32,000 bases of DNA from Polynucleobacter sp. JS-Mosq-20-D10 (GTDB lineage: Bacteria > Pseudomonadota > Gammaproteobacteria > Burkholderiales > Burkholderiaceae), in the NCBI RefSeq assembly GCF_018687755.1, contig NZ_CP061305.1, positions 2,019,788 through 2,051,787 on the forward strand, written 5' to 3'. The first letter of the stretch is position 1. Each line of letters starts with the position of its first letter. The notes under the pieces are model-generated. The model was not told the origin of the DNA. It made no database searches and saw only the letters and a program-made list of their open reading frames with translations. The translations under genes and the position numbers were made by a program. Shown here in pieces: positions 3,864 to 31,790 of the stretch.

Positions 3864-3880
3864 CGTTGTTTAAAACGACG
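3864..3880. repeat. 17-bp palindrome family, near-perfect copy
   Basis: cgttgtttaaaacgacg. One T.G position in the stem. Lies 25 nt 3' of the acyltransferase stop. Confidence 0.7.
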
Positions 3881-3904
3881 TTTCATGGATTTACACCCAA
3901 ATTT

Positions 3905-5776
3905 CTATTCAGTAAATTTTTCAAAAATTTTCTCAGAGCCGGCAATTGATAAGTAGCCCTTGTTTCGATAAAGCAGACCACCCTCAATTCTTAATTGGCA
4001 CTTGTCCTGAATACAAATTTGCTGATATGTATCGAATAATTTAACGTTGGAATTTTCAGCTATCTTAATTAACTCAGTCCTTGCAATGAAGTATTGGGCG
4101 TTTATATCTTTTGCAAGCTGTATACATTCTTTATTAAGAGTCGGCCTAAATGGTGGCATACCAGTGCACTCAATGGGCTCAAAAGATAGGTGCGGCGGAG
4201 GGCTAATGAGTATTGCTTGCTTGCCATTATCTCTGAGGAATTTAATAGTTCTCTCTAACTGGACTTTTTCTAGGCTATTAATAGCCGTTTCACGAAATCC
4301 CAGAATTACCGTTTTTACGCTCTGATCGTGTGCCAATCCAATAATGAGTTGATTCATTTTATGCCCGGTCTCGAGCGAATAATTTTCTGCCTCAGTCTTT
4401 TTAAGAAATGGCTGAGTCCCTGGCCACCCCACCATGGCAAAACTCTTACCAATATTTGAATAATATCGCTCAAGCCCTGAAAAGTGATTATGAGCGATGC
4501 TATCTCCAATTAATACCGTCTCTATATTTTTGCCTACGTAAGATAATCTACAAAAAGTTGGTTGGTAACCTACGAACTCTTGTAAGCAGGCTTTATCTGA
4601 ATGTGGCGGCCTTCCTCCATGAAGATCTAAAACATATTTATGTCTAAAATCTAAGCCATCTCGAACATAAACACTCCACCCTTGATAGCCAATCGACGTC
4701 ATGAGGGCGATCAATAAAACAGCAACTTTTTTGCCCTGATAACGAAACAGTCTCTCCCAATATCTATGCGTAAGATAAGCTAGTCCGATCGCGACTAGGA
4801 TGAGCGCAATTTTATGAAAATCAGATAATTTTCCGGCCGAGATAATTTGTCCAAAGCTTAGCAAAATCCAATGCCACAAATACAATGGGTAGCTAATGAC
4901 TCCCAGCCAAACCATCACATTATTAGAAAGAAATACTCTATTTATACTTGCTTCGCTGTTCGCCGATATTAGTAGAACCGCCCCTACAGTCGGCAATAAT
5001 GCCCACCAACCCGGAAATGAATTTTTACCACTAATCCAAAAAATGGCGATGTTAATCAGTATTAGCCCGACCCAAGAAAACACATTTAAGGCGGCCTGAC
5101 TGAATTGTCTTGCTTCTTGGCTATTTCTAAGTGAAATACATGCCCAAAGTGCGCCAACTAATAACTCCCAAAAGCGACTAAGGGGTGAGTAGAAAGTGGT
5201 GATTGGATCAAATTTAATGTTATAAATATTTATAGAAAATGAAATTAATATTAAGATTAAAACTGCACCCAATAAATTAATTCGAGCCTTGTACAAGATC
5301 CAAATAATTGCTGGCCAAAGTAAATAAAATTGCTCTTCGATAGATAATGACCATAAATGAATTAATGGTTTTGTATCTACGCTTCTTTCAAAGTAGGCGA
5401 TTTCATTTAAAAGAATGAAATTTTGAAAAAAGCCGGCGCTGGCGGCTATATGCTCTCCCACCCCCTTGAATTCTGAGGCATAAAGTGCGAACCAGCCAAA
5501 TGCATAGCATGTTACGAGTATCAAAAATAATGCTGGAAATATTCGTCTGATCCGTCGGAAATAAAACTCTGCAAAGCTAAAACTATTTGACTCTAAATTT
5601 TCTAAAATAATTTTTGTGATTAAAAACCCAGAGATCACAAAAAAAATATCAACGCCTACAAAACCACCACTAACCAAGTTAGGAAATGCGTGGTAGGCAA
5701 TGGTTGAGAGCACGGCTAATGCTCTAAGCCCGTCAATATCCTTGCGATAATTTATAGAGTGGTATTTTAAATACAT
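3905..5776 (-). CDS. Acyltransferase-3 family O-acyltransferase with C-terminal SGNH domain (OafA/YrhL-like)
   Basis: 623 aa. DGLRALAVLSTIAYHAF motif, about 10 TM segments, C-terminal LIGDSIAHNH block. Confidence 0.85.
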   Translation of the reverse strand: MYLKYHSINYRKDIDGLRALAVLSTIAYHAFPNLVSGGFVGVDIFFVISGFLITKIILENLESNSFSFAEFYFRRIRRIFPALFLILVTCYAFGWFALYASEFKGVGEHIAASAGFFQNFILLNEIAYFERSVDTKPLIHLWSLSIEEQFYLLWPAIIWILYKARINLLGAVLILILISFSINIYNIKFDPITTFYSPLSRFWELLVGALWACISLRNSQEARQFSQAALNVFSWVGLILINIAIFWISGKNSFPGWWALLPTVGAVLLISANSEASINRVFLSNNVMVWLGVISYPLYLWHWILLSFGQIISAGKLSDFHKIALILVAIGLAYLTHRYWERLFRYQGKKVAVLLIALMTSIGYQGWSVYVRDGLDFRHKYVLDLHGGRPPHSDKACLQEFVGYQPTFCRLSYVGKNIETVLIGDSIAHNHFSGLERYYSNIGKSFAMVGWPGTQPFLKKTEAENYSLETGHKMNQLIIGLAHDQSVKTVILGFRETAINSLEKVQLERTIKFLRDNGKQAILISPPPHLSFEPIECTGMPPFRPTLNKECIQLAKDINAQYFIARTELIKIAENSNVKLFDTYQQICIQDKCQLRIEGGLLYRNKGYLSIAGSEKIFEKFTE

Positions 5777-5902
5777 AAAACTGTTATTAATAATCGATGT
5801 AGCTCATGAGCCTAAAATTGAATCGTTCCAATTTAACAGCATTTAACCAAATCCATATTGCTTTAAACAATATTGACAGGCACAAGGATGTCTAATTGAT
5901 TC

Positions 5903-5917
5903 ATCCTTTTAAAGGAT
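5903..5917. repeat. Palindrome family, arm-compensated variant
   Basis: atccttttaaaggat. Confidence 0.55.
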
Positions 5918-5977
5918 AGTTCTTGATGGGGGTATCTGAGATTAATAGCGTATAGCCCAACAAGTGGGCCATTGAGA

Positions 5978-6026
5978 TTCTTGGTGGCCCGGGGCAGAAT
6001 CGACTGGGACTGAGGATGTTTGACTC
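5978..6026 (-). repeat. TLE copy
   Basis: ttcttggtggcccggggcagaatcgactgggactgaggatgtttgactc. Confidence 0.8.
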
Positions 6027-6037
6027 TAGCTCAAGAC

Positions 6038-6054
6038 TATCGTTTAAAACGACA
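6038..6054. repeat. 17-bp palindrome family, one outer mismatch
   Basis: tatcgtttaaaacgaca. Confidence 0.75.
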
Positions 6055-6217
6055 TTCATATACGTTGGTAATTTGAGTCTTGATCTTGTGCTTCATATTT
6101 GATAGAGGCCTAAAACCTCTGAGCAAGCATCTCACAAATTATCAGCATCGATTTGACTCGTAGAAATTGGGCTGTTGGCTGATTAATCAATCCTAAATCG
6201 AATCTTCCAATACATCT

Positions 6218-6535
6218 CTAGTCTTGCTTTCTTAAAAAATGTGGGATTGATTCATCACAATCTTTAGCGGTAATGGACTCTACTTCTTTTATGGGGTCTG
6301 ATTTACTAGATATATCAGCACCAACCTCTTGTGCGTAACGGTCGGCTGATTCAGCAAATGCTTCTAATGAGTTATCAAATGCATACAGGTTGCCATCTTC
6401 AATAGCAACAATTTCAACTACGGTGAATTTCAGTTTTGAGGCAAGAATTGCTAAATTGAACCCCCGCTCTTCACGAACCTTACGCAAGCGCTTACCTAGC
6501 AACTTGGCGGCTTTTATTTGTTCTACGCCTGCCAT
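6218..6535 (-). CDS. Helix-turn-helix (XRE/RodZ-like) protein
   Basis: ATG at 6535 preceded by GGAGGGG. LGKRLRKVREERGFNLAILASKL is an HTH-like segment. The track start at 6553 is a GTG without an RBS. Confidence 0.55.
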   Translation of the reverse strand: MAGVEQIKAAKLLGKRLRKVREERGFNLAILASKLKFTVVEIVAIEDGNLYAFDNSLEAFAESADRYAQEVGADISSKSDPIKEVESITAKDCDESIPHFLRKQD

Positions 6536-6642
6536 TGTCCCCTCCAATGGCACGATCTTAATTATTAAAAAAGTTTTTAGATATTAGCCATTAGGTGAAC
6601 AAATGAAGATTATAGGTAGCGTCTGCAGAGATCAATTGACCC

Positions 6643-11879: not shown

Positions 11880-11938
11880 TTTCTTGGTGGCCCGGGGCGG
11901 AATCGAACCACCGACACAAGGATTTTCAAATATCCTCC
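11880..11938 (-). repeat. TLE copy, subfamily A, the most tRNA-like
   Basis: The minus strand reads AGGAT-ATTTGAAA-ATCCT TGTGTC GGTGG TTCGATT CCGCC CCGGGCC A CCA. No 5' acceptor strand or D arm is present. Confidence 0.85.
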
Positions 11939-12097: not shown

Positions 12098-12114
12098 TGT
12101 CGTTTAAAACGACA
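12098..12114. repeat. 17-bp palindrome, perfect
   Basis: tgtcgtttaaaacgaca. Confidence 0.9.
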
Positions 12115-14745: not shown

Positions 14746-15312
14746 ATGTCACAAGCAAGAGTTTTAAATCCACAAGAACTACGCCGAGTTTTAGACCATG
14801 TTGCTACACGTAGGCACAGCGCTCGTAATCGCGCTATGTTGCTACTTACGCACTACGCGGGTATGCGAGTAGGTGAAGTTGCCGCCCTACGCATAAACGA
14901 CGTTTTAAATAGCGACAACACGATTAAGGATGAAGTGCGCTTAATGCCCGAGCAAACCAAAGGAAAGCATGCTCGTACTGTTTACCTAAATGAACGTATG
15001 CGTAAGGAGATTAGCCAGTACTTGCGTGTACTTCGTATTAAAGATGCCAGCAAGCCTTTGTTCTACACACAAAAACAAGCTGGTTTCTCTGCTAACTCAT
15101 TAGCCCAGTACTTCTTTTATCTCTATCGAGCCTGCTTACTAGATGGTGCAAGCAGCCATAGTGGCAGACGTAGCTTTCTAACTGGGCTTGCTAATAAGGG
15201 TACGGCGATCCATATTTTGAAGAGCCTAGCAGGACATAGAAACATTAGCACTACCGCAAGCTATCTCTATAGCAGTCCAACACAACTTAAGGCCGCAGTT
15301 GAACTTGTGTAA
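14746..15312 (+). CDS. Short tyrosine recombinase (catalytic domain only, 188 aa)
   Basis: GGGAG RBS. AGMRVGEV (Arg I), HSGRRSF (HxxR), GHRNISTTASYLY (His...Tyr nucleophile). Confidence 0.8.
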   Translation: MSQARVLNPQELRRVLDHVATRRHSARNRAMLLLTHYAGMRVGEVAALRINDVLNSDNTIKDEVRLMPEQTKGKHARTVYLNERMRKEISQYLRVLRIKDASKPLFYTQKQAGFSANSLAQYFFYLYRACLLDGASSHSGRRSFLTGLANKGTAIHILKSLAGHRNISTTASYLYSSPTQLKAAVELV

Positions 15313-15695: not shown

Positions 15696-15712
15696 TGTCG
15701 TTTTAAACGTCA
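15696..15712. repeat. 17-bp palindrome family, one mismatch
   Basis: tgtcgttttaaacgtca. Overlaps the stop codon at 15703-15705. Confidence 0.75.
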
Positions 15713-16578: not shown

Positions 16579-17370
16579 ATGAATACACTTATGAACGCAG
16601 CAGAAGTAACAGTAACTAGCAATGTCGTTTTAAACGACAAACCAGCACAAACTGCTGGAAATTCCAATGTAGTAGTTAATGCGACTAAATTGCTTGCCGG
16701 CATGGAAGCAAAGCGCATTTCATGGGAACAAGGTGCATATAGAACTAGTAATTTAGAGCTCTATAACGTTTTAGCTGAATGCCTACTATTTGCAGGCGAA
16801 CTATCTGTTAGCGAGTCTAAACAGCGTAGTGCCGCATTAGAAGCATTCTTCAAGGAGCGTGGGTATAAGTACAAGAAGGACTCACACATCATTGCTCGTG
16901 TAGTTCGCGCTGTATTTGGCAATATTGACCGTCGCCGTATCAGCACGTACGTCTTGGTACTACGCCAAGCTCAAAAGTCCAAAGTTGAAGCAACGCAATT
17001 AGCACAGTGGATTGAAGATAACCATGGCATTCAAGAAATCAAGCTTGCGCGTAGTGCCACTTTTATCAGCCCTACAGTAAAAGCATCTATCGCTAAAGCA
17101 GACTTTGAAAACCTGCCAGTACTAGCAATTGCTAAGTCTGAGCAACTTAGTCAGCTTGCTGATGCTGGATTCGTTGGTGAGGATTGTGTGCTTATTGCAC
17201 AGCAACTGGCTGATGGTAGCTTTGCCATTCGTGCATTGGTACGCAAAGAAGGTGCAGTCAATGCGGCTTTCACAGCATTGTATGGCGATATCAAATCGCA
17301 AGAGGTTGCCGCCAAGAAAGAAGTGGATGCGGCTAATGATGCTGATGGCGCTATTGCTAAACAAGCGTAA
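16579..17370 (+). CDS. Hypothetical protein, first gene of the plus-strand module
   Basis: 263 aa with no recognisable motif. Contains one copy of the 17-bp palindrome in frame (NVVLNDK). Confidence 0.6.
   Translation: MNTLMNAAEVTVTSNVVLNDKPAQTAGNSNVVVNATKLLAGMEAKRISWEQGAYRTSNLELYNVLAECLLFAGELSVSESKQRSAALEAFFKERGYKYKKDSHIIARVVRAVFGNIDRRRISTYVLVLRQAQKSKVEATQLAQWIEDNHGIQEIKLARSATFISPTVKASIAKADFENLPVLAIAKSEQLSQLADAGFVGEDCVLIAQQLADGSFAIRALVRKEGAVNAAFTALYGDIKSQEVAAKKEVDAANDADGAIAKQA
16623..16639. repeat. 17-bp palindrome, perfect, inside a CDS
   Basis: tgtcgttttaaacgaca within ORF 16579-17370. Confidence 0.9.
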
Positions 17371-18333: not shown

Positions 18334-18350
18334 TGTCGTTTTAAACGACA
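18334..18350. repeat. 17-bp palindrome, perfect
   Basis: tgtcgttttaaacgaca, between the convergent operon ends and followed by a T-run. Confidence 0.9.
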
Positions 18351-18362
18351 TTTTTTCTATTC

Positions 18363-19358
18363 CTACAAATTGAGAGATTCCAAGTAGACTTCATCTCCCC
18401 GCCTCTTAATTAAAGTATTTGATAAAAGTCCGACCGTATTTGCATCCTTAAATACGTTTAAAAAGATCTCATCTGCTGAGTTATTAGAATTTGTAAACTT
18501 AGCCATCGCAAGCGATAAAAGTCCTCTTGCAGATATAAATTGGATGTTGTGCTTCAAAATACTTTTATAGAAATTCTGGGATAAATTCCCCACCTTGCTA
18601 GAACACAACTCATGATCTTGCGGAAGCAGATCCTTCTCATCATCACCAATTAGGAGCAATTTAATTGAGGAAACTTTGTATTTGCTTTCGAGCTTTAGCC
18701 CAGATAGCTCCTCGTCATATGCCAATATTTGTGACTCATATCTTCCTTCGGCCATAAGCTTTTTTAGCCCAATTTTTGCTTCCATGACAATTAAAGTGTC
18801 TTTCGCTAGCACACATATATCTAGACGCCCGTTACGATCTCTACCTCCAATCGTGAGGGGAATTTCTAAACCAATCTTTTCATTAATGCCAAATAGGTAT
18901 CTAGCAGTATTACCGCCCCATATCGATATATTTGTTGTTTCATGTATACCAGTATATTTTTCGAAACTTTTGTATTTGACGTTAAGGCTATCCAAAGAAT
19001 TTTCGGAGAAGCTAATAAGATGGGCTTTAATTTCTGCTAATTCGACCTTGGTATGCCCACTAAAGCTCGAGCAAGATGGAACTGCCTTAAGGCCATCTGA
19101 GAAGTTAATTTTTCCACCGGGACAGCTAAACGCACATGAGCCACATGAGAGGCACTGATCTTGATCAATACTAATTGCGTTTAATGCTCTATCGTAAGAA
19201 ATGCAGTTGATCTCGGTTGTTAATAACTCATCTTTGCTATTAACCACACCTTCGTCACCAAGAAAAATGGGCAGGTTTTTATAGATCTTATGCGTAAAGA
19301 CCAAGCATGGCGGGAGGCCATCGCCGCCAACGGGAGTCAGTTTATAACTACATGTCAC
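18363..19358 (-). CDS. Fe-S-motif protein with PD-(D/E)xK-like nuclease core (candidate restriction/effector nuclease)
   Basis: CLSCGSCAFSCP (CxxCxxCxxxCP) at about aa 69-80. GRLDICVLAKDTLIVMEAKIG gives D-x13-E-x-K. The GTG start overlaps the upstream stop (GTGA). Confidence 0.65.
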   Translation of the reverse strand: MTCSYKLTPVGGDGLPPCLVFTHKIYKNLPIFLGDEGVVNSKDELLTTEINCISYDRALNAISIDQDQCLSCGSCAFSCPGGKINFSDGLKAVPSCSSFSGHTKVELAEIKAHLISFSENSLDSLNVKYKSFEKYTGIHETTNISIWGGNTARYLFGINEKIGLEIPLTIGGRDRNGRLDICVLAKDTLIVMEAKIGLKKLMAEGRYESQILAYDEELSGLKLESKYKVSSIKLLLIGDDEKDLLPQDHELCSSKVGNLSQNFYKSILKHNIQFISARGLLSLAMAKFTNSNNSADEIFLNVFKDANTVGLLSNTLIKRRGDEVYLESLNL

Positions 19359-20527
19359 TTTAGCCTAGCATTTATATCTGCAAGTAGTGCGGCGGGAGCG
19401 CCTAAACTCAATTCATTCAAGTCTATTTCGTTCATTGGTCGTAATACTTGCCCCGATCTTTCTACAATAATTCCCGCAGAATTAGCAATTTGGATTTCAA
19501 TCAGCACTACCTTCTTTAGCTCTGCTAAATTCAAAACATATAAGTCGGGATTGCCTTTTAAAAAATCTACTAGCGCATCTATCGATACTGTTTGGCTTTT
19601 TTTGAAAGCATTGTTTAGTAAATATAAAATTGCAAAACGCCTGTTTTGTATCACGGCTGTAGATTGCATTGTTGCCTCTCTCACCTCAGCCTGATTATTT
19701 TCGCGTAATGCCTTAGAGTTTTTTGTCAAATTGTTATAGTCGAGCGTTCTCTTAACGCAAAAATTATTCTGTGTAATTTTTGGAATATCTAGAACCTTAA
19801 ACATTCTTTTTCCCCTCTTTTTAGCAAGAATGTATGGTGCAGAATCTATATGTGCATTTTTTGCGCTATATGCCGGAAAATCCACTGGCTTGAAAAAGCC
19901 GGCGGAAATTCCCCATGCAATTAAGCAGGACCTCGTTCTAGTATTGCTATCTTGCTCGGATCCGCTTGAAATGGTGATTCGACTTCCGTTATAAGTTACT
20001 TTTTCTTCTGTAATTGGGTAGCCTACAACTAGCTCAGATGTGTCAAATTCATCTGTATTTTTTTGTAATATCTGCCCTAATAAACCAACCATTGGTCCAT
20101 AACTTAATACTGCCTTCACAATAATTGGGTGCATGTCCGCGGAATTGAAATCTGTCTCTGCAAACTTCTTTCCTAGTGGGGTTAGGGTCACAGCGCCCTT
20201 ATTGTCTCTAGTGACCAACCCTAAGCCATGGAGGCTATTTCCAGTATTGCTTACTTCTTTTGACTTTGTAGCGTCAATATCAATGCTATTAGTTAGAGCA
20301 CAGCCAGACTTATCAAGCGCCGCCTTATAGCGACAGTGCTGTATCCCCAAATTTGCTTTTTTTGTTAAGTAGTCACAGAAGGAGTGAATATTTACTGCGT
20401 TTACATTGAATTTAATCTCATTAAACCTAAATGAACTAGTCGTATTAAATTTATTGTTTATTAGCTTGCACATACTGTGCAAACACTGAAATCTAGCCGC
20501 TGGATTTCGATTGATTAAAAATGCCAC
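19355..20527 (-). CDS. Unknown 390-aa protein of the methyltransferase operon
   Basis: The long ORF overlaps both neighbours. The start is uncertain (GTG 20527 or ATG 20473). LHGLGLVTRDNKGAVTLTPLGKKF looks like a winged-helix element. Confidence 0.6.
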   Translation of the reverse strand: MAFLINRNPAARFQCLHSMCKLINNKFNTTSSFRFNEIKFNVNAVNIHSFCDYLTKKANLGIQHCRYKAALDKSGCALTNSIDIDATKSKEVSNTGNSLHGLGLVTRDNKGAVTLTPLGKKFAETDFNSADMHPIIVKAVLSYGPMVGLLGQILQKNTDEFDTSELVVGYPITEEKVTYNGSRITISSGSEQDSNTRTRSCLIAWGISAGFFKPVDFPAYSAKNAHIDSAPYILAKKRGKRMFKVLDIPKITQNNFCVKRTLDYNNLTKNSKALRENNQAEVREATMQSTAVIQNRRFAILYLLNNAFKKSQTVSIDALVDFLKGNPDLYVLNLAELKKVVLIEIQIANSAGIIVERSGQVLRPMNEIDLNELSLGAPAALLADINARLK

Positions 20528-20993
20528 TAAATTTGCCTGACTTGAGATTTTTTATATCCTCAAATCTTATATCAGGAAGCTGATCCCTAGCAAATTTATC
20601 AGTTATGGCCTTTTGAGTGATATCAGGGTAAATAACCAATCCTTTATAGAGCTTCTTATTTACATTGCCCTCAGCACTTGAAATGATTGTTTGAAGCTCG
20701 AGAGCGGCCTCATCTACTCGTTTTGAGCTAGTGAATTTACAAAGAACAACAAATTCATCAATCTTAAAGACCATTTCTATACGCTTTGGCCTGCTGCCAT
20801 AAGGAAACTTCACGGACAAAAAGACTTTCGTTTTAATTACCCCCTCAACATCGAAAGCATGATTTATTAACTGTTGATCTTTATCTAGGTCTGCATAATC
20901 AATTAAGCATTCGCGTACAACCCCGTCTGGCTCCCCAATAACTATTGATGCCAATGTGGAGTTGAAGTTAAATTTATTTGATATCAATTTCAT
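20493..20993 (-). CDS. Unknown 166-aa protein of the methyltransferase operon
   Basis: The ATG at 20993 overlaps the upstream MTase gene by 20 nt. No recognisable motif. Confidence 0.55.
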   Translation of the reverse strand: MKLISNKFNFNSTLASIVIGEPDGVVRECLIDYADLDKDQQLINHAFDVEGVIKTKVFLSVKFPYGSRPKRIEMVFKIDEFVVLCKFTSSKRVDEAALELQTIISSAEGNVNKKLYKGLVIYPDITQKAITDKFARDQLPDIRFEDIKNLKSGKFSGIFNQSKSSG

Positions 20994-21822
20994 ATTGCTG
21001 ACCTACTGCGTTCAGCTTTCTTTTAATAAGCGGCGCATAGTCAGCATTTAACTCGTAACCGATCGCCTTACGACCTAGGGCTAGGGCCATTTTCGCCGTA
21101 GTACCAGTGCCCATAAATGGATCAAGGACCGTATCCCCCCAAAAACTATATAACTTAATCAAGCGTTTTGGTAACTCATCTGGGAAAGGGGCTGGATGCT
21201 CCTCAGACTTTGCCTTAGCTGGCTGCATTTCCCAGATAGAATTGATTGCCCAGTCTTGCCACTCTTTTGTAGTCAGCTTTGATTTTTCCTTAATCTCTTT
21301 TGGGACTGGCTCTCTTTTCCCTTTTTTAGAAAAAACTGTAATCCACTCATAAGGGTACGTAGTAAAGATATTTGGTGGATATGGATAACTGCCAAATGAA
21401 CTAAATCTTACGATTTTTCTCTTATCCCATATGAACAAGCCAAACTGATACATCTCGTTTGTTTCAAACATAAACCTGCTGATGTCATCCAATACCAATC
21501 TTGTCTCTCGACGATCAAATCTTGCGGCCTTACCCGTCAACAAGAATGGCATGATGTTTATGCAGAGCTTTCCATCTGGAGCCAATACTCTTATGCACTC
21601 TTTCCAAACCTTATTTAATTCTTCAATATAGGCTTCGTATGAAGTGCTACCAGTTCCAATTTGGGCATCATTGTCATAGTCTTTCAGTGTCCAATATGGC
21701 GGGCTAGTTATTACAAGATTGACTGAGCCGTCTTTAATATCAGACATATCTTGTGACGACTTAATATAAATTTGTGCGTCACCAATCTGAAAGCTAGTAT
21801 CTTTTGTTTTTACTTTTGCCAT
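20974..21822 (-). CDS. DNA methyltransferase, N4/N6 family, beta-type motif order (IV then I)
   Basis: VITSPPYW near the N-terminus. HPAPFPDELPKRLIKLYSFWGDTVLDPFMGTGTTA near the C-terminus. Confidence 0.9.
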   Translation of the reverse strand: MAKVKTKDTSFQIGDAQIYIKSSQDMSDIKDGSVNLVITSPPYWTLKDYDNDAQIGTGSTSYEAYIEELNKVWKECIRVLAPDGKLCINIMPFLLTGKAARFDRRETRLVLDDISRFMFETNEMYQFGLFIWDKRKIVRFSSFGSYPYPPNIFTTYPYEWITVFSKKGKREPVPKEIKEKSKLTTKEWQDWAINSIWEMQPAKAKSEEHPAPFPDELPKRLIKLYSFWGDTVLDPFMGTGTTAKMALALGRKAIGYELNADYAPLIKRKLNAVGQQYEIDIK

Positions 21823-22844
21823 ACGATGATCTGCTCTTTTCTGGCTGTTTTATTAATTTCATCAAATACTTGAGATGTTGAATTTGTATAGGTTCTTTCT
21901 ACAACCTCAAGCAACTTAAAGGGAGTTAGCTTATTAAAAAATTCCCCTCCATTTATAACTTTTCCGTGAATTTTTTTATCCCCCACCACAAAAATTATTT
22001 TTGCGCCTGGCTTGCACACCAGATACAAATCGTCTAATACTTCTTTCATGCTTTTTTCATAAGTATTAAATTTTTGTATCAAAGAGTCCCGAATGGAATC
22101 TCGTTTTACATCAAAAATATCGTAAATAATTTTTGCATAGTAAGCCGTGTAATCTAGGCAATCAAAATATGGTGGGCTGGTAAAAATATAGTCTACCGAA
22201 TTCTTTGGCAATATCTTTGAAACTTGTCTAGCATCTGAATAGTAGATCTTTGAATTATTCTTCTCTAGAGGATAAAAATGCTTCTTCAGCTTGTTAAGAA
22301 AGCATTCATAAAAATCAATAAATTTCTTAGGTTCAATATTTTTTCCAACAGAGCTTGATGTCCACATGTAGTGATTGCAACCCCTAGCCGTCAAGCAAAC
22401 AGCCCCCATAAAGCAAGACTTTAAATACGCGGGCATATCACCATAAAAGCTTGCTATGGCTGCGATTTGGTCCCCACTCTTTTCATGAAAATAAAATTGG
22501 GCTTGAGTGGAGAGCTTTTTCTTACCCTCAATTTTCTTTGCTTTATCAATAAATGTATTTGCAACTGAGAGCATCTCTTCTTTTTGGTGGGGAATATTAA
22601 GCTTACCCTCTGCAATTGTTACAGCAACTGGATTCATATCGAACCCAACAACATCCATTCCAAGTTTTGCGCCTTCGTAGAGTATGGTGCCAGATCCACA
22701 GAAAGGGTCCAATAAGATTGAATTCTTATCAAATTGCCCCACAATCTTTTGAGCATCTATAGAGGAAATTTTTCCTCTATACGGATACATCCCATGGACT
22801 GACTTAGGGTTATTAACTGAAGTTAAGGTCTCAAATTTGAACAT
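21810..22844 (-). CDS. DNA methyltransferase, N4/N6 family, permuted order (I then IV)
   Basis: HGMYPYRGKI...LLDPFCGSGTILYEGAKLG at aa 17-62. FTSPPYFD at about aa 220. Overlaps the next MTase gene by 13 nt. Confidence 0.85.
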   Translation of the reverse strand: MFKFETLTSVNNPKSVHGMYPYRGKISSIDAQKIVGQFDKNSILLDPFCGSGTILYEGAKLGMDVVGFDMNPVAVTIAEGKLNIPHQKEEMLSVANTFIDKAKKIEGKKKLSTQAQFYFHEKSGDQIAAIASFYGDMPAYLKSCFMGAVCLTARGCNHYMWTSSSVGKNIEPKKFIDFYECFLNKLKKHFYPLEKNNSKIYYSDARQVSKILPKNSVDYIFTSPPYFDCLDYTAYYAKIIYDIFDVKRDSIRDSLIQKFNTYEKSMKEVLDDLYLVCKPGAKIIFVVGDKKIHGKVINGGEFFNKLTPFKLLEVVERTYTNSTSQVFDEINKTARKEQIIVWQK

Positions 22845-22870
22845 TTTTATTTCTATTTTTTTACTGTTTC

Positions 22871-22876
22871 ATTATA
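22871..22876 (-). promoter_or_regulatory. Candidate -10 box (TATAAT on the minus strand) for the MTase operon
   Basis: Perfect TATAAT 27 nt upstream of the ATG at 22844. The -35 region is poor and is overlapped by the palindrome at 22892-22908. Confidence 0.3.
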
Positions 22877-22891
22877 TGGCCTCGATCTTCA

Positions 22892-22908
22892 TGTCGTTTA
22901 AAACGACA
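22892..22908. repeat. 17-bp palindrome, perfect (19 bp with flanks)
   Basis: a tgtcgtttaaaacgaca t. Lies 10 nt 3' of the integrase stop and upstream of the MTase operon. Confidence 0.9.
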
Positions 22909-22917: not shown

Positions 22918-24192
22918 TTAGGCCAATTGCTCAGCCGCCATAGTAGGAGTTAGCTTTGAATAGTGCCGCTCAATCATGGCCGCACTATTGCCCATTTGTT
23001 TTGCCAGCGTATGAATATCAGTCTTATTTTCTAATAACTCTAAAGTAGCATAGGTATGACGTAGTGAATACAAGGTACGCATCTGCCCATCTTGACTCAT
23101 CGCTAGTCCACTATCTCTCATGAGCTTCTTGAATGTGCCATCTATGCGTAAAGGTTGATGCCCATCTGCCATCACAAATATCCTCTGTGGCGTACGTGTT
23201 TCAAACAGCCTATCGAATGGAATGTCATATACCGCCTTTTGGCGACTATGTAATCTCTTGAGGACATCAACAGCCCTATGCTTGGCTATGAGCCAACGCC
23301 CTCCAGTTTTGCCATCTACCCATATGCGCAAATACTTCTTGCCATCATTGGTATGCCATTCAATATTGTTCCAGCAGATATTGAGCGCTTCAGTGCCATG
23401 CCGCATACCGGTTAGTAACAGCATCTCTACGTAATCACGCACTAATGGGCGAATCTCACGCTCTATCTCAAGGCGACCTTCTTTAGCCCATCTCTCCATA
23501 TAGTCAAATAACTTAGTAATCTCTTCGCGACTAAAGGCAGGGCGGGTTTTGCCTTTATGCCCTCGAGTAGTTAATTTAGGTATTGCCACACGCTCACTAA
23601 TCCAACCTTTATTAACTGCCGTCTGCTGTAGCTTTGCCCATGCACTGGCAAAGTTCATTAAAGTACTGGATTTGGGTACTAGCCGCATCTGCCTATTACG
23701 CCAAATCTCAAACTCGTGAACATCTGTATAAGTAATTTCCTCAAGTCGCTTATCCATGAAATAAGGCAAGAAGTATTTCTCAATACAGGTGATGTAGCTT
23801 AGATAAACACTCTTGCCTATACCCTCACCCAAATCACGCCGCATTTCATAAAGCGTGGTGTGCGCTATTTCTGCAAACGTGGGTGACTTTTGTGCAAGCC
23901 CCAGTCTTTGGCGAAATCTGGCCTCATCATATAAATCACAGGCAACTCGGACAGCATGCTCAATTGAAGCTTGCTTGGTTGAGACTCTATCCCATGTGTT
24001 GTCATGTCGTTTAAAACGACATTGCCAGAGAGGGCTACTAGGCCTACGAAAGAGAACTACGTCGCCGTCACGTAAATAAAGCTCTGTAGGCTCTACGTAT
24101 TTGAGATGGCTTAGGGCTGTGAGCTGGGATTCTTGGAGTGGTGAGGAGATTACTTCTAGGTGACTTTCGGTTACTTTGATTACCTTAGTCAC
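22918..24192 (-). CDS. int: Tyrosine integrase (phage-integrase family)
   Basis: 424 aa. LLTGMRHGTE (Arg I), YSLRHTYAT (HxxR), IERHYSKL (His, Tyr). GTG start in the track. Confidence 0.9.
   Translation of the reverse strand: MTKVIKVTESHLEVISSPLQESQLTALSHLKYVEPTELYLRDGDVVLFRRPSSPLWQCRFKRHDNTWDRVSTKQASIEHAVRVACDLYDEARFRQRLGLAQKSPTFAEIAHTTLYEMRRDLGEGIGKSVYLSYITCIEKYFLPYFMDKRLEEITYTDVHEFEIWRNRQMRLVPKSSTLMNFASAWAKLQQTAVNKGWISERVAIPKLTTRGHKGKTRPAFSREEITKLFDYMERWAKEGRLEIEREIRPLVRDYVEMLLLTGMRHGTEALNICWNNIEWHTNDGKKYLRIWVDGKTGGRWLIAKHRAVDVLKRLHSRQKAVYDIPFDRLFETRTPQRIFVMADGHQPLRIDGTFKKLMRDSGLAMSQDGQMRTLYSLRHTYATLELLENKTDIHTLAKQMGNSAAMIERHYSKLTPTMAAEQLA
24005..24021. repeat. 17-bp palindrome, perfect (19 bp with flanks), inside the integrase CDS
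   Basis: a tgtcgtttaaaacgaca t, encoding CRFKRHD on the minus strand. Confidence 0.9.
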
Positions 24193-24368
24193 GATCCTAA
24201 GGCTGAAATTCTTTTTTCATATAGCTATATTAAATTCTGAGTTTTATTTGGACAACCTAGCCTTGTAATGTCGCTTCAAAAAACATTTTGCAGATTTATA
24301 TAACAGGCTCATTTAATGAGCTTTGCAGTCATTAAGCTTACTATTCCCAACAAATTTGAGGGGTAGTC

Positions 24369-27447: not shown

Positions 27448-27603
27448 ACGTCTGGTAACTAGATGCTTTATTCAAAGGTTGATTATTTTTACTTTATGAT
27501 TTAACCTATTAATACATCAAGAGATGGCTTAGTCGCCACAGCAACCTGCTAACGCAGTAAGGTGCTAAAAAGATGAGGCTCCCAGTGAGCAATCAAAGCG
27601 ACT

Positions 27604-27628
27604 AACCCACCCATTGGTGGGTTTTTTT
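27604..27628 (+). terminator. Rho-independent terminator about 155 nt after the WYL gene
   Basis: aacccacc-catt-ggtgggtt, followed by ttttt. Confidence 0.7.
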
Positions 27629-27690: not shown

Positions 27691-28050
27691 ATGACTATCT
27701 ATGAATTTAGAGAATGGCGCTTTAGACTAGGACTAACTACAGAGGCTTCCGCTGAGCTCTTAGGGGTTTCAAAAGATGCCGTATTGGGCTGGGAGCTTGG
27801 TAAGCATCCAATTACAAAGCAGACCCGCCTAGCAACATTAGCTTGTGAACTTGCCTATATTGCCGCAGACCAATATGTAAAGGCTCACCCTTATCCATCA
27901 GTCAACAACGGGATTAAAAACTTTGTAGCACATTCTGGAAGGAAAAAAATTAGAGAGGGCATCATCAATGGAAGGAATCCCATTGAAAGAGAGTTATCAA
28001 TACTTCTCGCGCCTAAGTCCCTCATCCACTGTGAGGGCAAGAGATCATGA
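27691..28050 (+). CDS. XRE-type HTH protein
   Basis: Strong RBS AAGGAGGA. FRLGLTTEASAELLGVSKDAVLGWELGK. Confidence 0.65.
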   Translation: MTIYEFREWRFRLGLTTEASAELLGVSKDAVLGWELGKHPITKQTRLATLACELAYIAADQYVKAHPYPSVNNGIKNFVAHSGRKKIREGIINGRNPIERELSILLAPKSLIHCEGKRS

Positions 28051-28724
28051 AAACAAATGAATTTGCGTTTTACCGAAAACGAATCCGTCAAACCCAAGAG
28101 AAGATCGCTGAAGTTCTCAATATCCCTCTAGATATCTATATCGAAATTGAGGATAACAAACGAGAGCCTTCTCAGCAGGTTAGAGAGGCTTTTGGTTCTC
28201 TATTAGCCAGGTTTCCAGGAAGTACAGACCTATCAAGGCCTAAGATTAAGGCGATTGATGAATATAAAGTTCAATACCAATTTAAAACTGGGAAACTGCC
28301 CGTTGGTAAGCATTGGATTCCATTCAATATTTTAGGATGTAAAAAGGTATTGATTGATTTCAGTCCATACGATGATGATCTAGATAAAGGAGTAATTAAG
28401 ACAGAAAAGGAGATGTGGAATTGGATAAATGCTCATGACATATCACCCGTAATTACTCCCGAGTATTTCAATCACCTTACCACTCTAAATAATCGTGAAC
28501 TTCAGGAAGAGGTTGATTTTTGGGATAGATTCTATACAGCTCAGCATTATGGGAAATATAAGTCTAGAACAACGCCAAAAGAACTTGAGGAGCAAATCTC
28601 GAAAAAGAAAGAGCGTACTAGAGCATATTGGATAGATAAGGCTAATCGGGTTTTAATAAAAACTCTACTTGGACTTATTGCTTTATGGGGGTTGGCTCAC
28701 CTAATAGTTTTTTTAGATAAATGA
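28047..28724 (+). CDS. XRE-type HTH protein with C-terminal transmembrane anchor
   Basis: ATGA overlap with the upstream gene. N-terminal IRQTQEKIAEVLNIPLDIYIEIE and C-terminal VLIKTLLGLIALWGLAHLIVFL. Confidence 0.6.
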   Translation: MKTNEFAFYRKRIRQTQEKIAEVLNIPLDIYIEIEDNKREPSQQVREAFGSLLARFPGSTDLSRPKIKAIDEYKVQYQFKTGKLPVGKHWIPFNILGCKKVLIDFSPYDDDLDKGVIKTEKEMWNWINAHDISPVITPEYFNHLTTLNNRELQEEVDFWDRFYTAQHYGKYKSRTTPKELEEQISKKKERTRAYWIDKANRVLIKTLLGLIALWGLAHLIVFLDK

Positions 28725-28740
28725 AGTGCTGGTAATGAAG

Positions 28741-28757
28741 TGTCCTTTAAAAGGACA
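28741..28757. repeat. Palindrome family, arm-compensated variant
   Basis: tgtcctttaaaaggaca. Lies 17 nt after the stop at 28724. Confidence 0.7.
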
Positions 28758-28955: not shown

Positions 28956-29006
28956 AATCTTGGTGGCCCGGGGCGGAATCGAACCAGGGCCGAGGATGCC
29001 TGATCC
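28956..29006 (-). repeat. TLE copy, subfamily B
   Basis: aatcttggtggcccggggcggaatcgaaccagggccgaggatgcctgatcc. 29 bp (28958-28986) are identical to 11882-11910. Confidence 0.9.
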
Positions 29007-29062
29007 AAGCTCTTTTTAATTTCGTTGTACTCAAATCGAGCTTTTGGATTTACCTTGGAATG

Positions 29063-30959: not shown

Positions 30960-30976
30960 TGTCGTTTAAAACGACA
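30960..30976. repeat. 17-bp palindrome, perfect
   Basis: tgtcgtttaaaacgaca. Confidence 0.9.
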
Positions 30977-31058
30977 TCGCAAGCACCGGCCCTAGATGAC
31001 AGTCGCTTAAATAGACGCAGGACCGACACAGGGATGACAAATCCCCAATAAATAAAGC

Positions 31059-31073
31059 GTCCTTTTAAAGGAC
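31059..31073. repeat. Palindrome family, arm-compensated variant
   Basis: gtccttttaaaggac. Confidence 0.65.
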
Positions 31074-31158
31074 AGTTCATGATGGGGGGATGTGAACGGC
31101 AACTGTAAACCATGTGGTCGGTACCGGATGTAAACCATGTGTCCGGTACGTACCAGTG

Positions 31159-31209
31159 TTTCTTGGTGGCCCGGGGCGGAGTCGAACCAGGGCCGAGGAT
31201 GCCTGATTC
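31159..31209 (-). repeat. TLE copy, subfamily B
   Basis: tttcttggtggcccggggcggagtcgaaccagggccgaggatgcctgattc. Confidence 0.9.
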
Positions 31210-31293
31210 AAAGAATTGAGCCCACAAAAGTTGATTTTTAGTGCCCTTAATCATTGGTGATAATAAAGATATCTATTCTAGAAAAAAGAGGCT

Positions 31294-31620
31294 ATGGTAA
31301 CAATCATGCTCAAATATTTATCTAACATCGATAAAGCAAGGTCAACCAATAAAAACTATCGCATAAACGATAGGCAAGCATTCATCCTGGACTATATATG
31401 TGAAAAACATCTTTCCCATAAGGTCTGCCACATCCAAGAGATTATTTTATTAAAAACAGTTGGATCTCAGGCAACGCTTCATGCTGTTACAAAAGTTCTG
31501 GCTAAACTAGGTCTGATTCAAGTTAGGATCGATCCGGTTGATAACAGAATGAAAAATGTTCTGCCAACCCCTCTAGCTCTACAACGTTTAAAGACTTTAG
31601 TAGCTATTTTTCAGAAATAG
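31294..31620 (+). CDS. MarR-like winged-helix regulator (short)
   Basis: AGAGG RBS. IQEIILLKTVGSQATLHAVTKVLAKLGLIQVRIDPVDNRMKNV resembles the MarR recognition helix and wing. Confidence 0.55.
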   Translation: MVTIMLKYLSNIDKARSTNKNYRINDRQAFILDYICEKHLSHKVCHIQEIILLKTVGSQATLHAVTKVLAKLGLIQVRIDPVDNRMKNVLPTPLALQRLKTLVAIFQK

Positions 31621-31680
31621 CCCTTAAGCAATACCACATAGCAACGTCATACTAATCAACGGAACCTCATCCGCCCGACC

Positions 31681-31715
31681 AAAAGAAAATGCCCCGCACG
31701 GAGCAGGGCATTATT
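31681..31715. terminator. Bidirectional terminator between the MarR-like gene and a TLE
   Basis: aaaagaaaatgccc-cgcacggagc-agggcattattt. Confidence 0.6.
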
Positions 31716-31716
31716 T

Positions 31717-31767
31717 GAGTTTGGTGGCCCGGGGCGGAATCGACCAGGGCATCAGGATATCTGACTC
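31717..31767 (-). repeat. TLE copy, subfamily B
   Basis: gagtttggtggcccggggcggaatcgaccagggcatcaggatatctgactc. Confidence 0.85.
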
Positions 31768-31775
31768 TAGTCAGC

Positions 31776-31790
31776 GTCGATTAAATCGAC
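31776..31790. repeat. Palindrome family, arm-compensated variant
   Basis: gtcgattaaatcgac. Confidence 0.65.

What the first reader, a model, noticed from the sequence alone, without database searches (positions are those of the whole stretch)
3864..31790. Over-represented 17-bp perfect palindrome TGTCGTTT(A/T)AAACGACA, with variants that change both arms together
Seen: there are six exact copies (12098, 16623, 18334, 22892, 24005, 30960) and three one-mismatch copies (3864, 6038, 15696). Four variants keep the symmetry by changing both arms: GTCCTTT.AAAGGAC (28741, 31059), ATCCTTT.AAAGGAT (5903) and GTCGATT.AATCGAC (31776). The chance expectation for any given 17-mer in 32 kb is far below one occurrence. 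Most copies sit 10-60 nt after a stop codon. Two are inside CDSs (integrase, encoding CRFKRHD; ORF 16579, encoding NVVLNDK). Copies occur both in the repeat-rich flanks and inside the island. The core contains TTTAAA. Inference: the paired arm changes argue for selection on a hairpin or cruciform, or on a symmetric dimer-binding site. The density, gene-end bias and presence in imported DNA resemble inverted DNA-uptake-sequence pairs or REP-type elements. An operator for an island or host regulator, or a site related to the adjacent R-M system, are alternatives.
Basis: partly seen in the sequence, partly recalled or inferred. Interest (0 to 1): 0.72.

Follow-up and report, generated by a model that had tools for sequence, protein, structure and literature searches.

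The report
Palindromes punctuating Polynucleobacter tRNA-Phe islands
The 17-bp palindrome is real and is the signature cis-element of a family of integrase-carrying genomic islands inserted next to the tRNA-Phe gene of the freshwater bacterium Polynucleobacter, where it marks island ends and gene-module junctions in two lineage-specific "dialects", most likely as a binding site for the islands' own recombination proteins.

Summary
The window has six exact copies, against zero in shuffles, plus near copies and symmetric variants. The window comes from Polynucleobacter, closest to P. paneuropaeus. The motif is not genome-wide. It clusters 3' of the tRNA-Phe(GAA) gene, in an array of integrative islands bounded by direct repeats of the tRNA-Phe 3' end.

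In 80 related islands from metagenomes, palindromes sit about 150-230 bp inside both ends. They also bracket and lie inside the integrase gene. One lies in codons 15-20 of a conserved 263-aa gene in 43 of 43 islands. Others flank inserted defence cassettes.

There are two discrete forms, TGTCG..CGACA and TGTCC..GGACA. Each tracks an island lineage: 195:12 in one and 5:105 in the other. Hybrid forms are almost absent (1 in 230). At the intragenic site the switch changes two amino acids.

This points to a sequence-specific symmetric protein-binding site, not to a free hairpin. The best reading is a site for the island's recombination machinery that also serves as a module junction (confidence about 0.4). 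An island-wide operator is the main rival. The DNA-uptake, REP/RAYT, terminator and R-M readings are weak. The binding protein was not identified.

The parts
12098..12114 (.). G-type palindrome, exact. It lies about 165-215 bp inside the island end marked by the tRNA-Phe 3' fragment at 11885-11932.
   Evidence: The same 'tRNA fragment, about 145-230 bp, palindrome' layout recurs at island ends in more than 20 related loci.
15696..15712 (.). G-type palindrome with one mismatch (TGTCGTTTTAAACGTCA). It overlaps the stop codon of the 249-aa ORF (15703-16452, - strand). A 112-aa ORF (15313-15651) is inserted between it and the small recombinase.
   Evidence: Relatives L035 and L065 have the palindrome directly after the recombinase stop. 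A copy at the 249-aa stop is present in 28 of 40 islands.
16623..16639 (.). G-type palindrome, exact, encoding N-V-V-L-N-D at codons 15-20 of the 263-aa ORF (16579-17370, + strand).
   Evidence: It is present at this site in 43 of 43 islands, as G-type in G islands and as C-type (N-V-L-L-K-D) in C islands. The N-terminal 29 residues are predicted disordered.
18334..18350 (.). G-type palindrome, exact. It is the distal boundary of the inserted R-M cassette and sits immediately after an intrinsic terminator (18306-18325).
18351..22891 (-). R-M or defence cassette (two N6/N4 methyltransferases and three further ORFs). It is flanked by two palindromes, while relatives L141 and L035 have one palindrome and no cassette.
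22892..22908 (.). G-type palindrome, exact, 10 nt after the integrase stop codon (the '+13/+14 site').
   Evidence: It is present in 27 of 65 related islands, always in the dialect of that island.
22918..24192 (-). Tyrosine integrase of the island (424 aa).
24005..24021 (.). G-type palindrome, exact, inside the integrase CDS (C-R-F-K-R, about codon 58, in the N-terminal region).
   Evidence: It is exact in 39 of 43 G-lineage integrases, down to 74% protein identity. It is absent from C-lineage integrases, which read TGCCGCTTTAGACTGCA.
24269..24285 (.). Decayed palindrome (TGTCGCTTCAAAAAACA) at the '-89 site' upstream of the integrase promoter.
   Evidence: In relatives an intact palindrome here marks the point where homology to other islands stops.
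28741..28757 (.). C-type palindrome, exact (TGTCCTTTAAAAGGACA), 17 nt after the stop of ORF 28047-28724 and about 200 bp inside the other island end (tRNA-Phe fragment at 28961-29008).
   Evidence: Loci L191 and L193 have the same C-type end module on a G-type island.
30960..30976 (.). G-type palindrome, exact. It is the first unit of a composite repeat: G-pal, a third hairpin (GTCGCTTAAATAGAC at about 31002), then a C-pal at 31058.
31058..31074 (.). C-type palindrome (CGTCCTTTTAAAGGACA) of the composite repeat, next to the tRNA-Phe fragment at 31164-31211.
6038..6054 (.). G-type palindrome with one mismatch. It directly abuts a tRNA-Phe-like 3' fragment (5982-6037) in a module that has no integrase.
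5902..5918 (.). C-type-derived palindrome ATCCTTTTAAAGGAT within a composite repeat. An upstream AAGGATG covaries with its left arm.
3864..3880 (.). Decayed relative CGTTGTTTAAAACGACG, 25 nt after the stop of the acyltransferase ORF.
31775..31791 (.). Third-type hairpin CGTCGATTAAATCGACA, abutting the tRNA-Phe fragment at 31722-31769.
11885..11932 (-). tRNA-Phe(GAA) 3' fragment (anticodon loop to CCA) serving as the att-type direct repeat at the island end. Further copies start at about 1645, 2869, 5982, 10088, 10677, 28961, 31164 and 31722.
14746..15312 (+). Small tyrosine recombinase (188 aa, catalytic domain only; Xer-, integron- or invertase-like) of the island backbone.

Best explanation
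The palindrome is a protein-recognition site that belongs to a family of integrative islands. These islands are tycheposon-like, or 'additive' flexible islands, and they accumulate in tandem at the tRNA-Phe(GAA) gene of Polynucleobacter.

Shown:
- The islands are bounded by direct repeats of the tRNA-Phe 3' end.
- A palindrome lies about 150-230 bp inside each end and is the first conserved element after the tRNA gene.
- Further copies bracket the integrase gene and lie inside it.
- Further copies separate the backbone transcription units.
- Copies flank inserted defence cassettes.
- Two discrete forms exist, with half-sites TGTCGTTT and TGTCCTTT. Each is used throughout one island lineage, and hybrids are almost absent.

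Inferred:
- The site is read on double-stranded DNA by a symmetric dimer encoded by the island. The most likely candidates are the integrase, through its N-terminal arm-type domain, or a partner such as a directionality factor or the small 188-aa recombinase.
- Binding at the copies near both ends helps to assemble the integration/excision complex at the tRNA-derived core.
- The internal copies are junctions left by, and reused for, the gain and loss of modules: X-pal-Y becomes X-pal-cassette-pal-Y, and the reverse.
- The 5+7+5 layout (TGTCG / TTTWAAA / CGACA, the geometry of a tRNA arm) would also let the site act as a core-type crossover site. In that case the G and C forms would be mutually incompatible site classes.
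For: (1) Island confinement. There are 81 palindromes in 182 kb 3' of complete tRNA-Phe genes, against 4 in 82.6 kb on the 5' side. Of the 120 genome tiles picked only for holding the 17-mer, 17 also hold tRNA-Phe. Density is 0.3-0.4 per kb in islands. IMG/VR yields only 7 singletons.

(2) End architecture. The order 'tRNA fragment, about 145-230 bp, palindrome ... palindrome, about 145-340 bp, tRNA fragment' appears in more than 20 islands and in the window. The empty site in L076 shows that the tRNA fragment is the duplicated att repeat.

(3) Junction behaviour. The R-M cassette (window 18351-22891) and a 2.5-kb defence cassette (L194) each have a palindrome on both sides, while relatives have one palindrome and no cassette. 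The breakpoints fall exactly at the palindrome edges. Homology upstream of the integrase stops at the -89 palindrome in about 30 different contexts. The integrase module recurs as an isolated block bounded by two palindromes. Alignment ends lie within 15 bp of a palindrome 13.6% of the time, against 1.9% for random positions.

(4) Sequence-specific and symmetric recognition. Position 5/13 is G:C 129, C:G 83 and hybrid 1. The centre is A or T in 218 of 230 copies. Lineage counts are 195 G: 12 C and 5 G: 105 C.

(5) DNA-level constraint overrides the protein. Synonymous sites are frozen in the integrase: 39 of 43 copies are exact across 74-96% protein identity. The intragenic site in the 263-aa gene is kept in 43 of 43 islands and switches dialect at the cost of V-to-L and N-to-K changes.

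(6) Association with att remnants. Composite repeats place palindromes next to tRNA-Phe-derived fragments, which look like old att junctions.
Against: - No binding protein was identified. The two conserved backbone proteins of unknown function have no Pfam, PDB or fold match.
- Distances from the palindrome to the tRNA core fall into several classes rather than one fixed spacing.
- Of about 100 indels between related islands, 61 have no palindrome at either edge. Some insertions have a palindrome on one side only, for example L148 and window 15313-15695.
- The palindrome plus about 10 nt can itself be present or absent between the integrase and ATPase stops.
- Recombination breakpoints inside the integrase are not at the internal palindrome.
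- No inversion between palindromes was seen in 80 loci.
- Copies inside two coding regions are awkward for a crossover site.
- The -89 site is C-type even in some G islands.
- The alignment-end enrichment was tested against random positions, not against intergenic positions only.
Confidence: 0.4

Rival explanations
1. The palindromes are an island-wide operator set. An island-encoded dimeric regulator, or a replication or partition factor, binds them to control or silence the island's modules. The operators of KorA and KorB, which are dispersed over IncP plasmids, and parS sites inside genes, work in this way. Under this reading the dialects reflect co-evolution of the regulator and its sites.
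For: - The most conserved position is the 5' end of the replication-module operon, in 43 of 43 islands.
- A copy sits about 14 nt upstream of the -35 of a sigma70-like integrase promoter, TTGTCC-17-TAAAAT (read from the sequence).
- One copy lies inside the integrase gene.
- Copies are perfect, spaced every 2-3 kb and specific to a lineage.
- The window's copies in integrase-less modules are mostly decayed, while those inside the integrase island are mostly perfect.
Against: - Many copies lie just after stop codons, between convergent genes or behind terminators, where there is no promoter.
- The model does not explain copies about 200 bp inside both att ends.
- It does not explain the duplication around inserted cassettes.
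- No HTH or ParB-like protein was detected in the backbone.
- The promoter scan gave fewer hits than shuffled sequence.
Confidence: 0.25
2. The palindromes are a REP/BIME- or NIME/dRS3-like intergenic palindromic repeat. On this view a small self-propagating or host-maintained hairpin element piles up in permissive 3' intergenic DNA, forms mosaic composites and incidentally promotes rearrangements.
For: - 66 of 76 copies are intergenic, against about 20% intergenic sequence, with a bias to gene 3' ends.
- Mosaic composites with two other hairpin types occur at about 45-bp spacing.
- The unit plus about 10 nt can be present or absent on its own.
- The single-stranded hairpins are moderately stable, at about -7 kcal/mol.
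Against: - The copies are confined to the tRNA-Phe island array rather than spread over the genome.
- Conserved positions inside two genes and the lineage-matched replacement at orthologous sites are not expected of a selfish insertion.
- The GTAG-type REP head is absent.
Confidence: 0.12
3. The palindrome is a DNA uptake signal, as DUS and USS are. Biased uptake during natural transformation would enrich it, and the G and C forms would be dialects of different host lineages.
For: - The motif is restricted to one genus and is hugely over-represented.
- Exact and one-mismatch copies are about equally common.
- Dialects switch in concert, even at coding sites.
- Recombination is high in Polynucleobacter and its mechanism is not discussed in the literature I could read.
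Against: - The density differs about 9-fold between the two sides of tRNA-Phe, and host flanks are nearly free of copies.
- A C-type island sits beside a G-type copy on one contig.
- Half-sites never occur alone.
- Positional conservation at specific backbone sites is not required by uptake.
- I found no evidence on competence in this genus.
Confidence: 0.05
4. The palindrome acts at the RNA level or as a terminator. On this view it is a weak bidirectional intrinsic terminator or a 3'-end protective hairpin that insulates neighbouring modules.
For: - It has an A-tract, hairpin and T-tract flavour, especially the C-type.
- Several copies are picked up by the terminator scan.
- Copies tend to lie after stop codons.
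- G.U-type changes occur on one strand in composite copies.
Against: - Copies often lie directly behind strong canonical terminators, for example at 18306-18325.
- There are only 3 G-C pairs and usually 2-3 T residues.
- A pure structural role would allow any compensatory change, yet only two sequence forms exist, and these are uniform within a lineage.
- Copies occur inside coding regions and upstream of promoters.
Confidence: 0.05

Closest known systems
Arm-type and accessory protein sites in the att regions of tyrosine-integrase elements (lambda P/P' arms, DR2 repeats of Tn916). Basis: my own knowledge.
   Same: - The sites are short and specific.
- They lie 100-200 bp inside both ends of the integrated element.
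- They flank a tRNA-derived core.
- They are specific to the element lineage.
   Different: - Known arm sites are about 10-bp non-palindromic repeats confined to att.
- Here the site is a perfect 17-bp palindrome.
- It also recurs every 2-3 kb inside the element and inside two genes.
- Its distance to the core is not fixed.
Cassette-bounding recombination sites: integron attC, and pdif (XerC/D) modules of Acinetobacter plasmids. Basis: my own knowledge.
   Same: - Short palindromic sites separate exchangeable gene modules.
- A filled site has a copy on each side of the cassette, and an empty site has one copy.
- A tyrosine recombinase gene lies nearby.
   Different: - attC sites are 57-141 bp, imperfect and conserved in structure rather than sequence.
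- pdif is an 11-6-11 Xer site.
- Here many indels lack the site, and no circular cassettes or recombination activity are shown.
Neisseria dRS3/NIME and E. coli REP/BIME mosaic intergenic repeats. Basis: my own knowledge.
   Same: - Both involve short palindromic units of several types arranged in mosaics at gene 3' ends.
- They are associated with variable gene cassettes and serve as integration targets.
   Different: - Those repeats are dispersed genome-wide in hundreds of copies.
- REPs have cognate RAYT transposases.
- Here the copies are confined to the tRNA-Phe island array, and no RAYT was found.
KorA/KorB operators of IncP plasmids and parS sites. Basis: my own knowledge.
   Same: - Both are perfectly conserved 12-16-bp palindromes scattered over a mobile element.
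- Some lie in promoters, some far from promoters and some inside genes.
- They are read by element-encoded dimers.
   Different: - No ParB, KorB or HTH protein was detected in these islands.
- Those operators do not mark element ends or cassette junctions.
DUS dialects of Neisseriaceae. Basis: PMC3868556 (title and abstract seen) and my own knowledge.
   Same: - Lineage-specific variants of one short motif replace each other at orthologous sites, including coding sites.
   Different: - DUS are non-palindromic 10-12-mers at about 1 per kb across the whole genome, and they are read by a pilin.
- This motif is confined to islands.
Tycheposons and additive flexible genomic islands (bioRxiv 10.1101/2020.12.28.424599; PMC10872708). 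This entry describes the host element, not the palindrome.
   Same: - The host is a streamlined planktonic bacterium.
- A tyrosine integrase is present.
- Arrays of partial tRNA repeats occur.
- A small replication-like module sits next to the integrase.
- The cargo is defence and nutrient genes.
   Different: - Neither paper mentions palindromes.
- The integrase here is not shown to belong to the tycheposon lineage.
- The integrase often lies inside the island rather than at its end.

Membership tests
DNA uptake sequence (DUS/USS) | Dense, roughly even distribution over the whole chromosome, core genes included | tested here: not met
   There are 4 copies in 82.6 kb 5' of tRNA-Phe and 81 in 182 kb on the 3' side. 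Hits from one genome fall in neighbouring tiles. Whole genomes were not available.
DNA uptake sequence (DUS/USS) | Preferential uptake by a competence machinery | not testable with these tools
   This needs uptake assays. The papers I read contain no data on competence in Polynucleobacter.
REP / REPIN | A cognate RAYT (Y1 HUH transposase) gene, typically flanked by the repeats | tested here: not met
No transposase family appears among the 108 neighbouring proteins.
REP / REPIN | Extragenic location, hundreds of copies genome-wide, imperfect 20-40-nt palindrome with a GTAG-type head | tested here: not met
   The copies are mostly extragenic. However, they are perfect 17-mers without a GTAG head, they are confined to islands, and two conserved sites lie inside genes.
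Integron attC | An imperfect 57-141-bp palindrome with R''/L''-L'/R' boxes, one per cassette, in an array next to intI/attI | tested here: not met
   The site is a perfect 17-bp palindrome with no R/L boxes. Cassettes are often without it. The small recombinase matches the integron-integrase model only far below its cut-off.
Tyrosine-recombinase core-type site | Inverted binding arms around a 6-8-bp crossover region | tested here: met
   The site reads TGTCG / TTTWAAA / CGACA, with weak AA..TT extensions. Matching this geometry is necessary but not sufficient.
Tyrosine-recombinase core-type site | Strand exchange occurs there, so insertions are bounded by two copies and the empty site has one | tested here: inconclusive
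   There are two clean cases, the window R-M cassette against L141 and L194 against L187. Other insertions have one copy or none. No inversions were seen.
Integrase arm-type / accessory att site | Copies in both arms, about 100-250 bp from the core, specific to the element lineage | tested here: met
   See the end architecture and the lineage dialects.
Integrase arm-type / accessory att site | Bound by the integrase N-terminal domain or by an RDF | not testable with these tools
   This needs EMSA, footprinting or DAP-seq.
Intrinsic terminator | A G+C-rich stem followed by a run of T | tested here: not met
   There are only 3 G-C pairs and usually 2-3 T residues. Copies often sit directly behind a canonical terminator.
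Known RNA family (Rfam 15) | A match to a curated covariance model | tested here: not met
   The gathering scan of the window found only Polynucleobacter-1 and SAM-I/IV, both located elsewhere. E-value scans of the composite regions found nothing credible.

The most novel reading that the evidence does not exclude
The palindromes could be the crossover sites of an integron-like cassette system embedded in tRNA-targeting islands of a streamlined freshwater bacterium. Under this reading, gene cassettes (R-M, TIR/NTase defence genes, even the integrase module itself) are inserted, excised and swapped between islands by an island tyrosine recombinase acting on a 5+7+5 site that mimics a tRNA arm. 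The G and C forms would then be mutually incompatible site classes that keep two island gene pools apart.
Probability: 0.2. Interest if true: 0.8.

Novelty: new variant of a known kind. Interest (0 to 1): 0.55.

Why it matters
Polynucleobacter is a model for abundant freshwater plankton with streamlined genomes. Its microdiversity is attributed to genomic islands and high gene flow, but the mechanism is not described in the papers I could read.

A short, perfectly conserved, lineage-coded site that marks island ends and module junctions gives three things:

- A simple sequence tag. It can be used to find these islands and their cassette boundaries in genomes and metagenomes.
- A concrete, testable handle on how cargo such as defence systems is plugged into tRNA-linked islands, the same class as tycheposons and additive islands.
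- A clean natural example of a protein-DNA recognition code switching in concert. The switch extends to positions inside genes, where it overrides the amino-acid sequence.

Tried and rejected
- Phage origin. A scan of IMG/VR gave 7 singletons.
- RAYT, IS200 or IS608 transposases. tblastn found nothing.
- Enrichment of a gene family next to the palindromes. The neighbours are diverse accessory genes, and only 3 of 108 are integrases.
- Palindrome-mediated inversion by the FimB-sized small recombinase. No inverted segment was found in 80 loci.
- Known RNA families. None matched.
- Promoter association from a consensus scan. The scan was uninformative, with fewer hits than in shuffles.
- Identity of the two conserved backbone proteins (263 aa and 249 aa). 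There was no Pfam, PHROG, NCBIfam or PDB sequence hit. The AlphaFold models (pLDDT 72.6 and 86.1) had no Foldseek match below E = 0.2.
- Recombination breakpoints at the intragenic integrase palindrome. The breakpoints lie near codons 20-35, not at the palindrome.
- Exact look-up of the R-M methyltransferase in public assemblies. It is not on record.
- Literature. No paper holds the sequence, and none links Polynucleobacter to this palindrome. Hoetzinger et al. 2017 (PMC5244307) was not available.
- The idea that the palindrome is the anticodon arm of a tRNA. ARAGORN finds no tRNA that contains it, and the flanking fragments derive from tRNA-Phe, whose anticodon arm reads GAGGA-TTGAAAA-TCCTT. 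Only the 5+7+5 geometry and 6 of 7 loop bases are shared.

Full report
1. THE OBSERVATION

TGTCGTTTWAAACGACA occurs exactly six times in the window, at 12098, 16623, 18334, 22892, 24005 and 30960. It occurred zero times in 100 dinucleotide-preserving shuffles. One-mismatch copies lie at 6038 and 15696. The copy at 3864 (CGTTGTTTAAAACGACG) has three mismatches, not one.

There are also a copy at 8149 and a decayed copy at 24269. The 8-mer half-site never occurs outside a palindrome; all 7 occurrences are inside one.

Most window copies lie 10-60 nt after a stop codon, or overlap one (ORF table). Both 'intragenic' copies are truly coding.

2. WHERE THE WINDOW COMES FROM

Rfam finds the Polynucleobacter-1 RNA at 13508-13643. 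The 263-aa protein is 98% identical to a P. paneuropaeus protein.

About half of the tiles are labelled Polynucleobacter, with up to three copies per 8 kb. The hits in other taxa are singletons. By my own arithmetic, about 70 chance hits are expected in 596 Gb. IMG/VR holds only seven singletons.

3. THE MOTIF BELONGS TO THE tRNA-Phe ISLAND ARRAY, NOT TO THE WHOLE GENOME

The window's most abundant repeat (families D1 and D2; nine copies) is the 3' part of tRNA-Phe(GAA). ARAGORN finds no complete tRNA in the window. It does find complete tRNA-Phe genes in 26 related loci, including 17 of the 120 tiles that were selected only for holding the palindrome.

Relative to these genes, palindromes number 81 in 182 kb on the 3' side and 4 in 82.6 kb on the 5' side. 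Locus L076 is an empty site with one tRNA-like copy where the window has two copies, at 10088 and 31164, flanking 21 kb.

The whole window is therefore a tandem array of integrated modules separated by tRNA-Phe 3' fragments. This is the architecture described for additive flexible islands and tycheposons in other streamlined plankton. Neither of those papers mentions palindromes.

4. ISLAND ANATOMY

A metagenome scan with the window's integrase returned 80 related loci totalling 796 kb. When oriented on the integrase, they share one plan:

- Each island end has a tRNA-Phe fragment, with a palindrome about 145-230 bp (up to 340 bp) inside it.
- A palindrome lies 89 bp upstream of the integrase start. 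It sits just upstream of a sigma70-like promoter, and homology between islands stops exactly there.
- A palindrome lies inside the integrase at +172, in one lineage only.
- A palindrome lies 13-14 nt after the integrase stop in 27 of 65 islands.
- A palindrome lies in codons 15-20 of the 263-aa gene in 43 of 43 islands.
- A palindrome lies at the stop of the 249-aa gene in 28 of 40 islands.

The window's island spans about 11.9-29.0 kb and fits this plan. The end copies are at 12098 and 28741. The others are at 15696, 16623, 18334/22892 and 24005, with the decayed copy at 24269.

Directly downstream of the real tRNA-Phe gene lies a composite repeat: about 85 nt, a C-type palindrome, 29 nt, then a G-type palindrome. 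The 29-nt spacer is the reverse complement of tRNA-Phe positions 39-51. The 'variants' at 5902, 31058 and 31775 are units of such composites. A third hairpin type (GCGTCG-N7-CGACGC) also belongs to them.

5. TWO DIALECTS

Contigs fall into two groups. One has 195 G-type and 12 C-type copies. The other has 5 G-type and 105 C-type copies.

Among 230 unique-context copies in these unbiased loci, position 5/13 is G:C 129 times, C:G 83 times and a CC or GG hybrid once. The centre is A or T in 218.

Orthologous sites switch dialect. The site after the integrase stop is G-type in G islands and C-type in C islands, with the same terminator behind it. The site inside the 263-aa gene encodes N-V-V-L-N-D in G islands and N-V-L-L-K-D in C islands. 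That stretch of the protein is predicted disordered.

The integrase-internal copy (C-R-F-K-R) is exact in 39 of 43 G-lineage genes, down to 74% protein identity. It is absent from C-lineage genes, where a C-type version would not code for the required residues.

Outside the G/C pair I see no excess of compensatory double changes. A change of one base in the half-site of a symmetric dimer automatically changes both arms.

On contig L003 a C-type island abuts a G-type copy next to the tRNA fragment. The dialect therefore follows the island or module, not simply the host.

6. JUNCTION BEHAVIOUR

The R-M cassette (18351-22891) is flanked by two palindromes. L141 and L035 have the same flanks with one palindrome and no cassette, and the breakpoints fall at the palindrome edges. 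In L194 a 2.5-kb cassette with TIR- and nucleotidyltransferase-like genes is inserted in the same way relative to L187.

The integrase module recurs as an isolated block bounded by its two palindromes. Alignment ends are enriched about 7-fold near palindromes compared with random positions.

There are counter-examples:

- 61 of about 100 indels have no palindrome at their edges.
- Some insertions have a palindrome on one side only, such as L148 and window 15313-15695.
- The palindrome plus about 10 nt can itself be present or absent.
- Mosaic breakpoints inside the integrase lie elsewhere.
- No inversions were seen.

7. WHAT IT MOST LIKELY IS

The site is confined to islands and recurs at fixed backbone positions and near both att ends. 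It is perfectly conserved against the coding constraint, and it exists in two lineage-wide symmetric forms. Together these features point to a sequence-specific dimeric protein encoded by the island.

Three further facts make the recombination machinery my preferred reader (confidence about 0.4):

- The placement inside both ends and next to tRNA-derived junctions.
- The duplication around cassettes.
- The 5+7+5 geometry.

The candidate readers are the integrase arm-type domain, an accessory factor or the small recombinase. On this reading the internal copies are junctions at which modules are gained and lost. This step is inferred, because no protein was identified.

The main rival (0.25) is an island-wide operator set, as with KorA/KorB or parS. 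It is favoured by the universal site at the start of the replication-module operon and by the site upstream of the integrase promoter. It does not explain the end copies or the cassette duplication.

The other readings are weak, for the reasons given in the rivals section:

- REP-like: 0.12.
- DNA uptake: 0.05.
- Terminator: 0.05.

A link to the R-M system is excluded, because the cassette is an insertion between pre-existing sites.

8. NOVELTY

I found no description of this motif. The host element is of a known kind, a tRNA-targeting integrative island. A perfect palindrome that punctuates such islands in lineage-specific dialects, including inside genes, is to my knowledge a new variant.

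Noticed in passing
window 1645-1669, 2869-2893, 5982-6006, 10088-10112, 10677-10701, 11885-11909, 28961-28985, 31164-31188, 31722-31746 (all on the - strand): There are nine copies of the tRNA-Phe(GAA) 3' end, although the window holds no complete tRNA. On the - strand the usual order is gene, tRNA fragment, then intrinsic terminator. The whole 32 kb therefore reads as a tandem array of 1-17-kb integrated modules. Two sub-types exist: one is identical to the tRNA from the anticodon loop onward, and the other only from the T-loop onward.
   Followed up: partly
window 13508-13643 (+): The Polynucleobacter-1 RNA (RF01718, 93.6 bits) lies in the conserved island backbone, between the DUF6641 gene and a 139-aa ORF. 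This suggests that the orphan RNA motif is a component of this island family.
   Followed up: no
window 27509-27606 (+): A SAM-I/IV riboswitch aptamer (64.3 bits) followed by a terminator (27604-27623) sits inside the island. It lies upstream of a small HTH gene (27691-28050) rather than a methionine or SAM gene, which is an unusual context.
   Followed up: no
window 5862-6054 and 30960-31215; about 20 related copies (e.g. L113:1104-1300): A composite repeat of about 200 bp contains a G-pal, a spacer, a C-pal and the motif 'gttcatgatgggg'. An upstream AGGGAYG covaries with the left arm of the C-pal (GGGATG/TGTCC, GGGACG/CGTCC, AAGGATG/CATCC). This gives two mutually exclusive helices, and the changes are G.U-type on one strand only.
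   Followed up: partly
L194:4091-6613: At the same hotspot as the window's R-M cassette, another island carries a different cassette. It has a 266-aa nucleotidyltransferase-like ORF and a 247-aa ORF with a TIR-like C-terminus. This makes the hotspot look like a swappable defence slot. The ORF annotations are by eye only.
   Followed up: no
window 15703-16452 (-) and 16579-17370 (+): Two backbone proteins are conserved in hundreds of Polynucleobacter sequences (353 and 594 homologues). Neither has a family, PDB or fold match, even though the 249-aa protein gives a confident model (pLDDT 86).
   Followed up: yes
L007:5488-5560 and L103:4049-4120: A G-type palindrome is followed by a 5' fragment of tRNA-Phe (..GTAGAGCAGAGGATT) joined head-to-head to the reverse complement of its 3' part (CCGACAC..). 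This inverted junction at the anticodon loop suggests past recombination between att sites in opposite orientation.
   Followed up: no
window 24447-24551 (+), within ORF 24369-24671: Four to five tandem 21-bp repeats encode a (N/D)SPYNM heptad in a small secreted-looking protein.
   Followed up: no
L180:5536-5610: ARAGORN calls an odd tRNA-like gene ('tRNA-Phe', anticodon AAA) inside a C-type island. It is unrelated in sequence to the host tRNA-Phe.
   Followed up: no
window 17431-18099 (+): The island ATPase is a clamp-loader/RFC-like AAA+ protein (PHROG 'clamp loader', NCBIfam RFC/DnaX N-terminal matches below cut-off). This fits a small replication module next to the integrase.
   Followed up: partly
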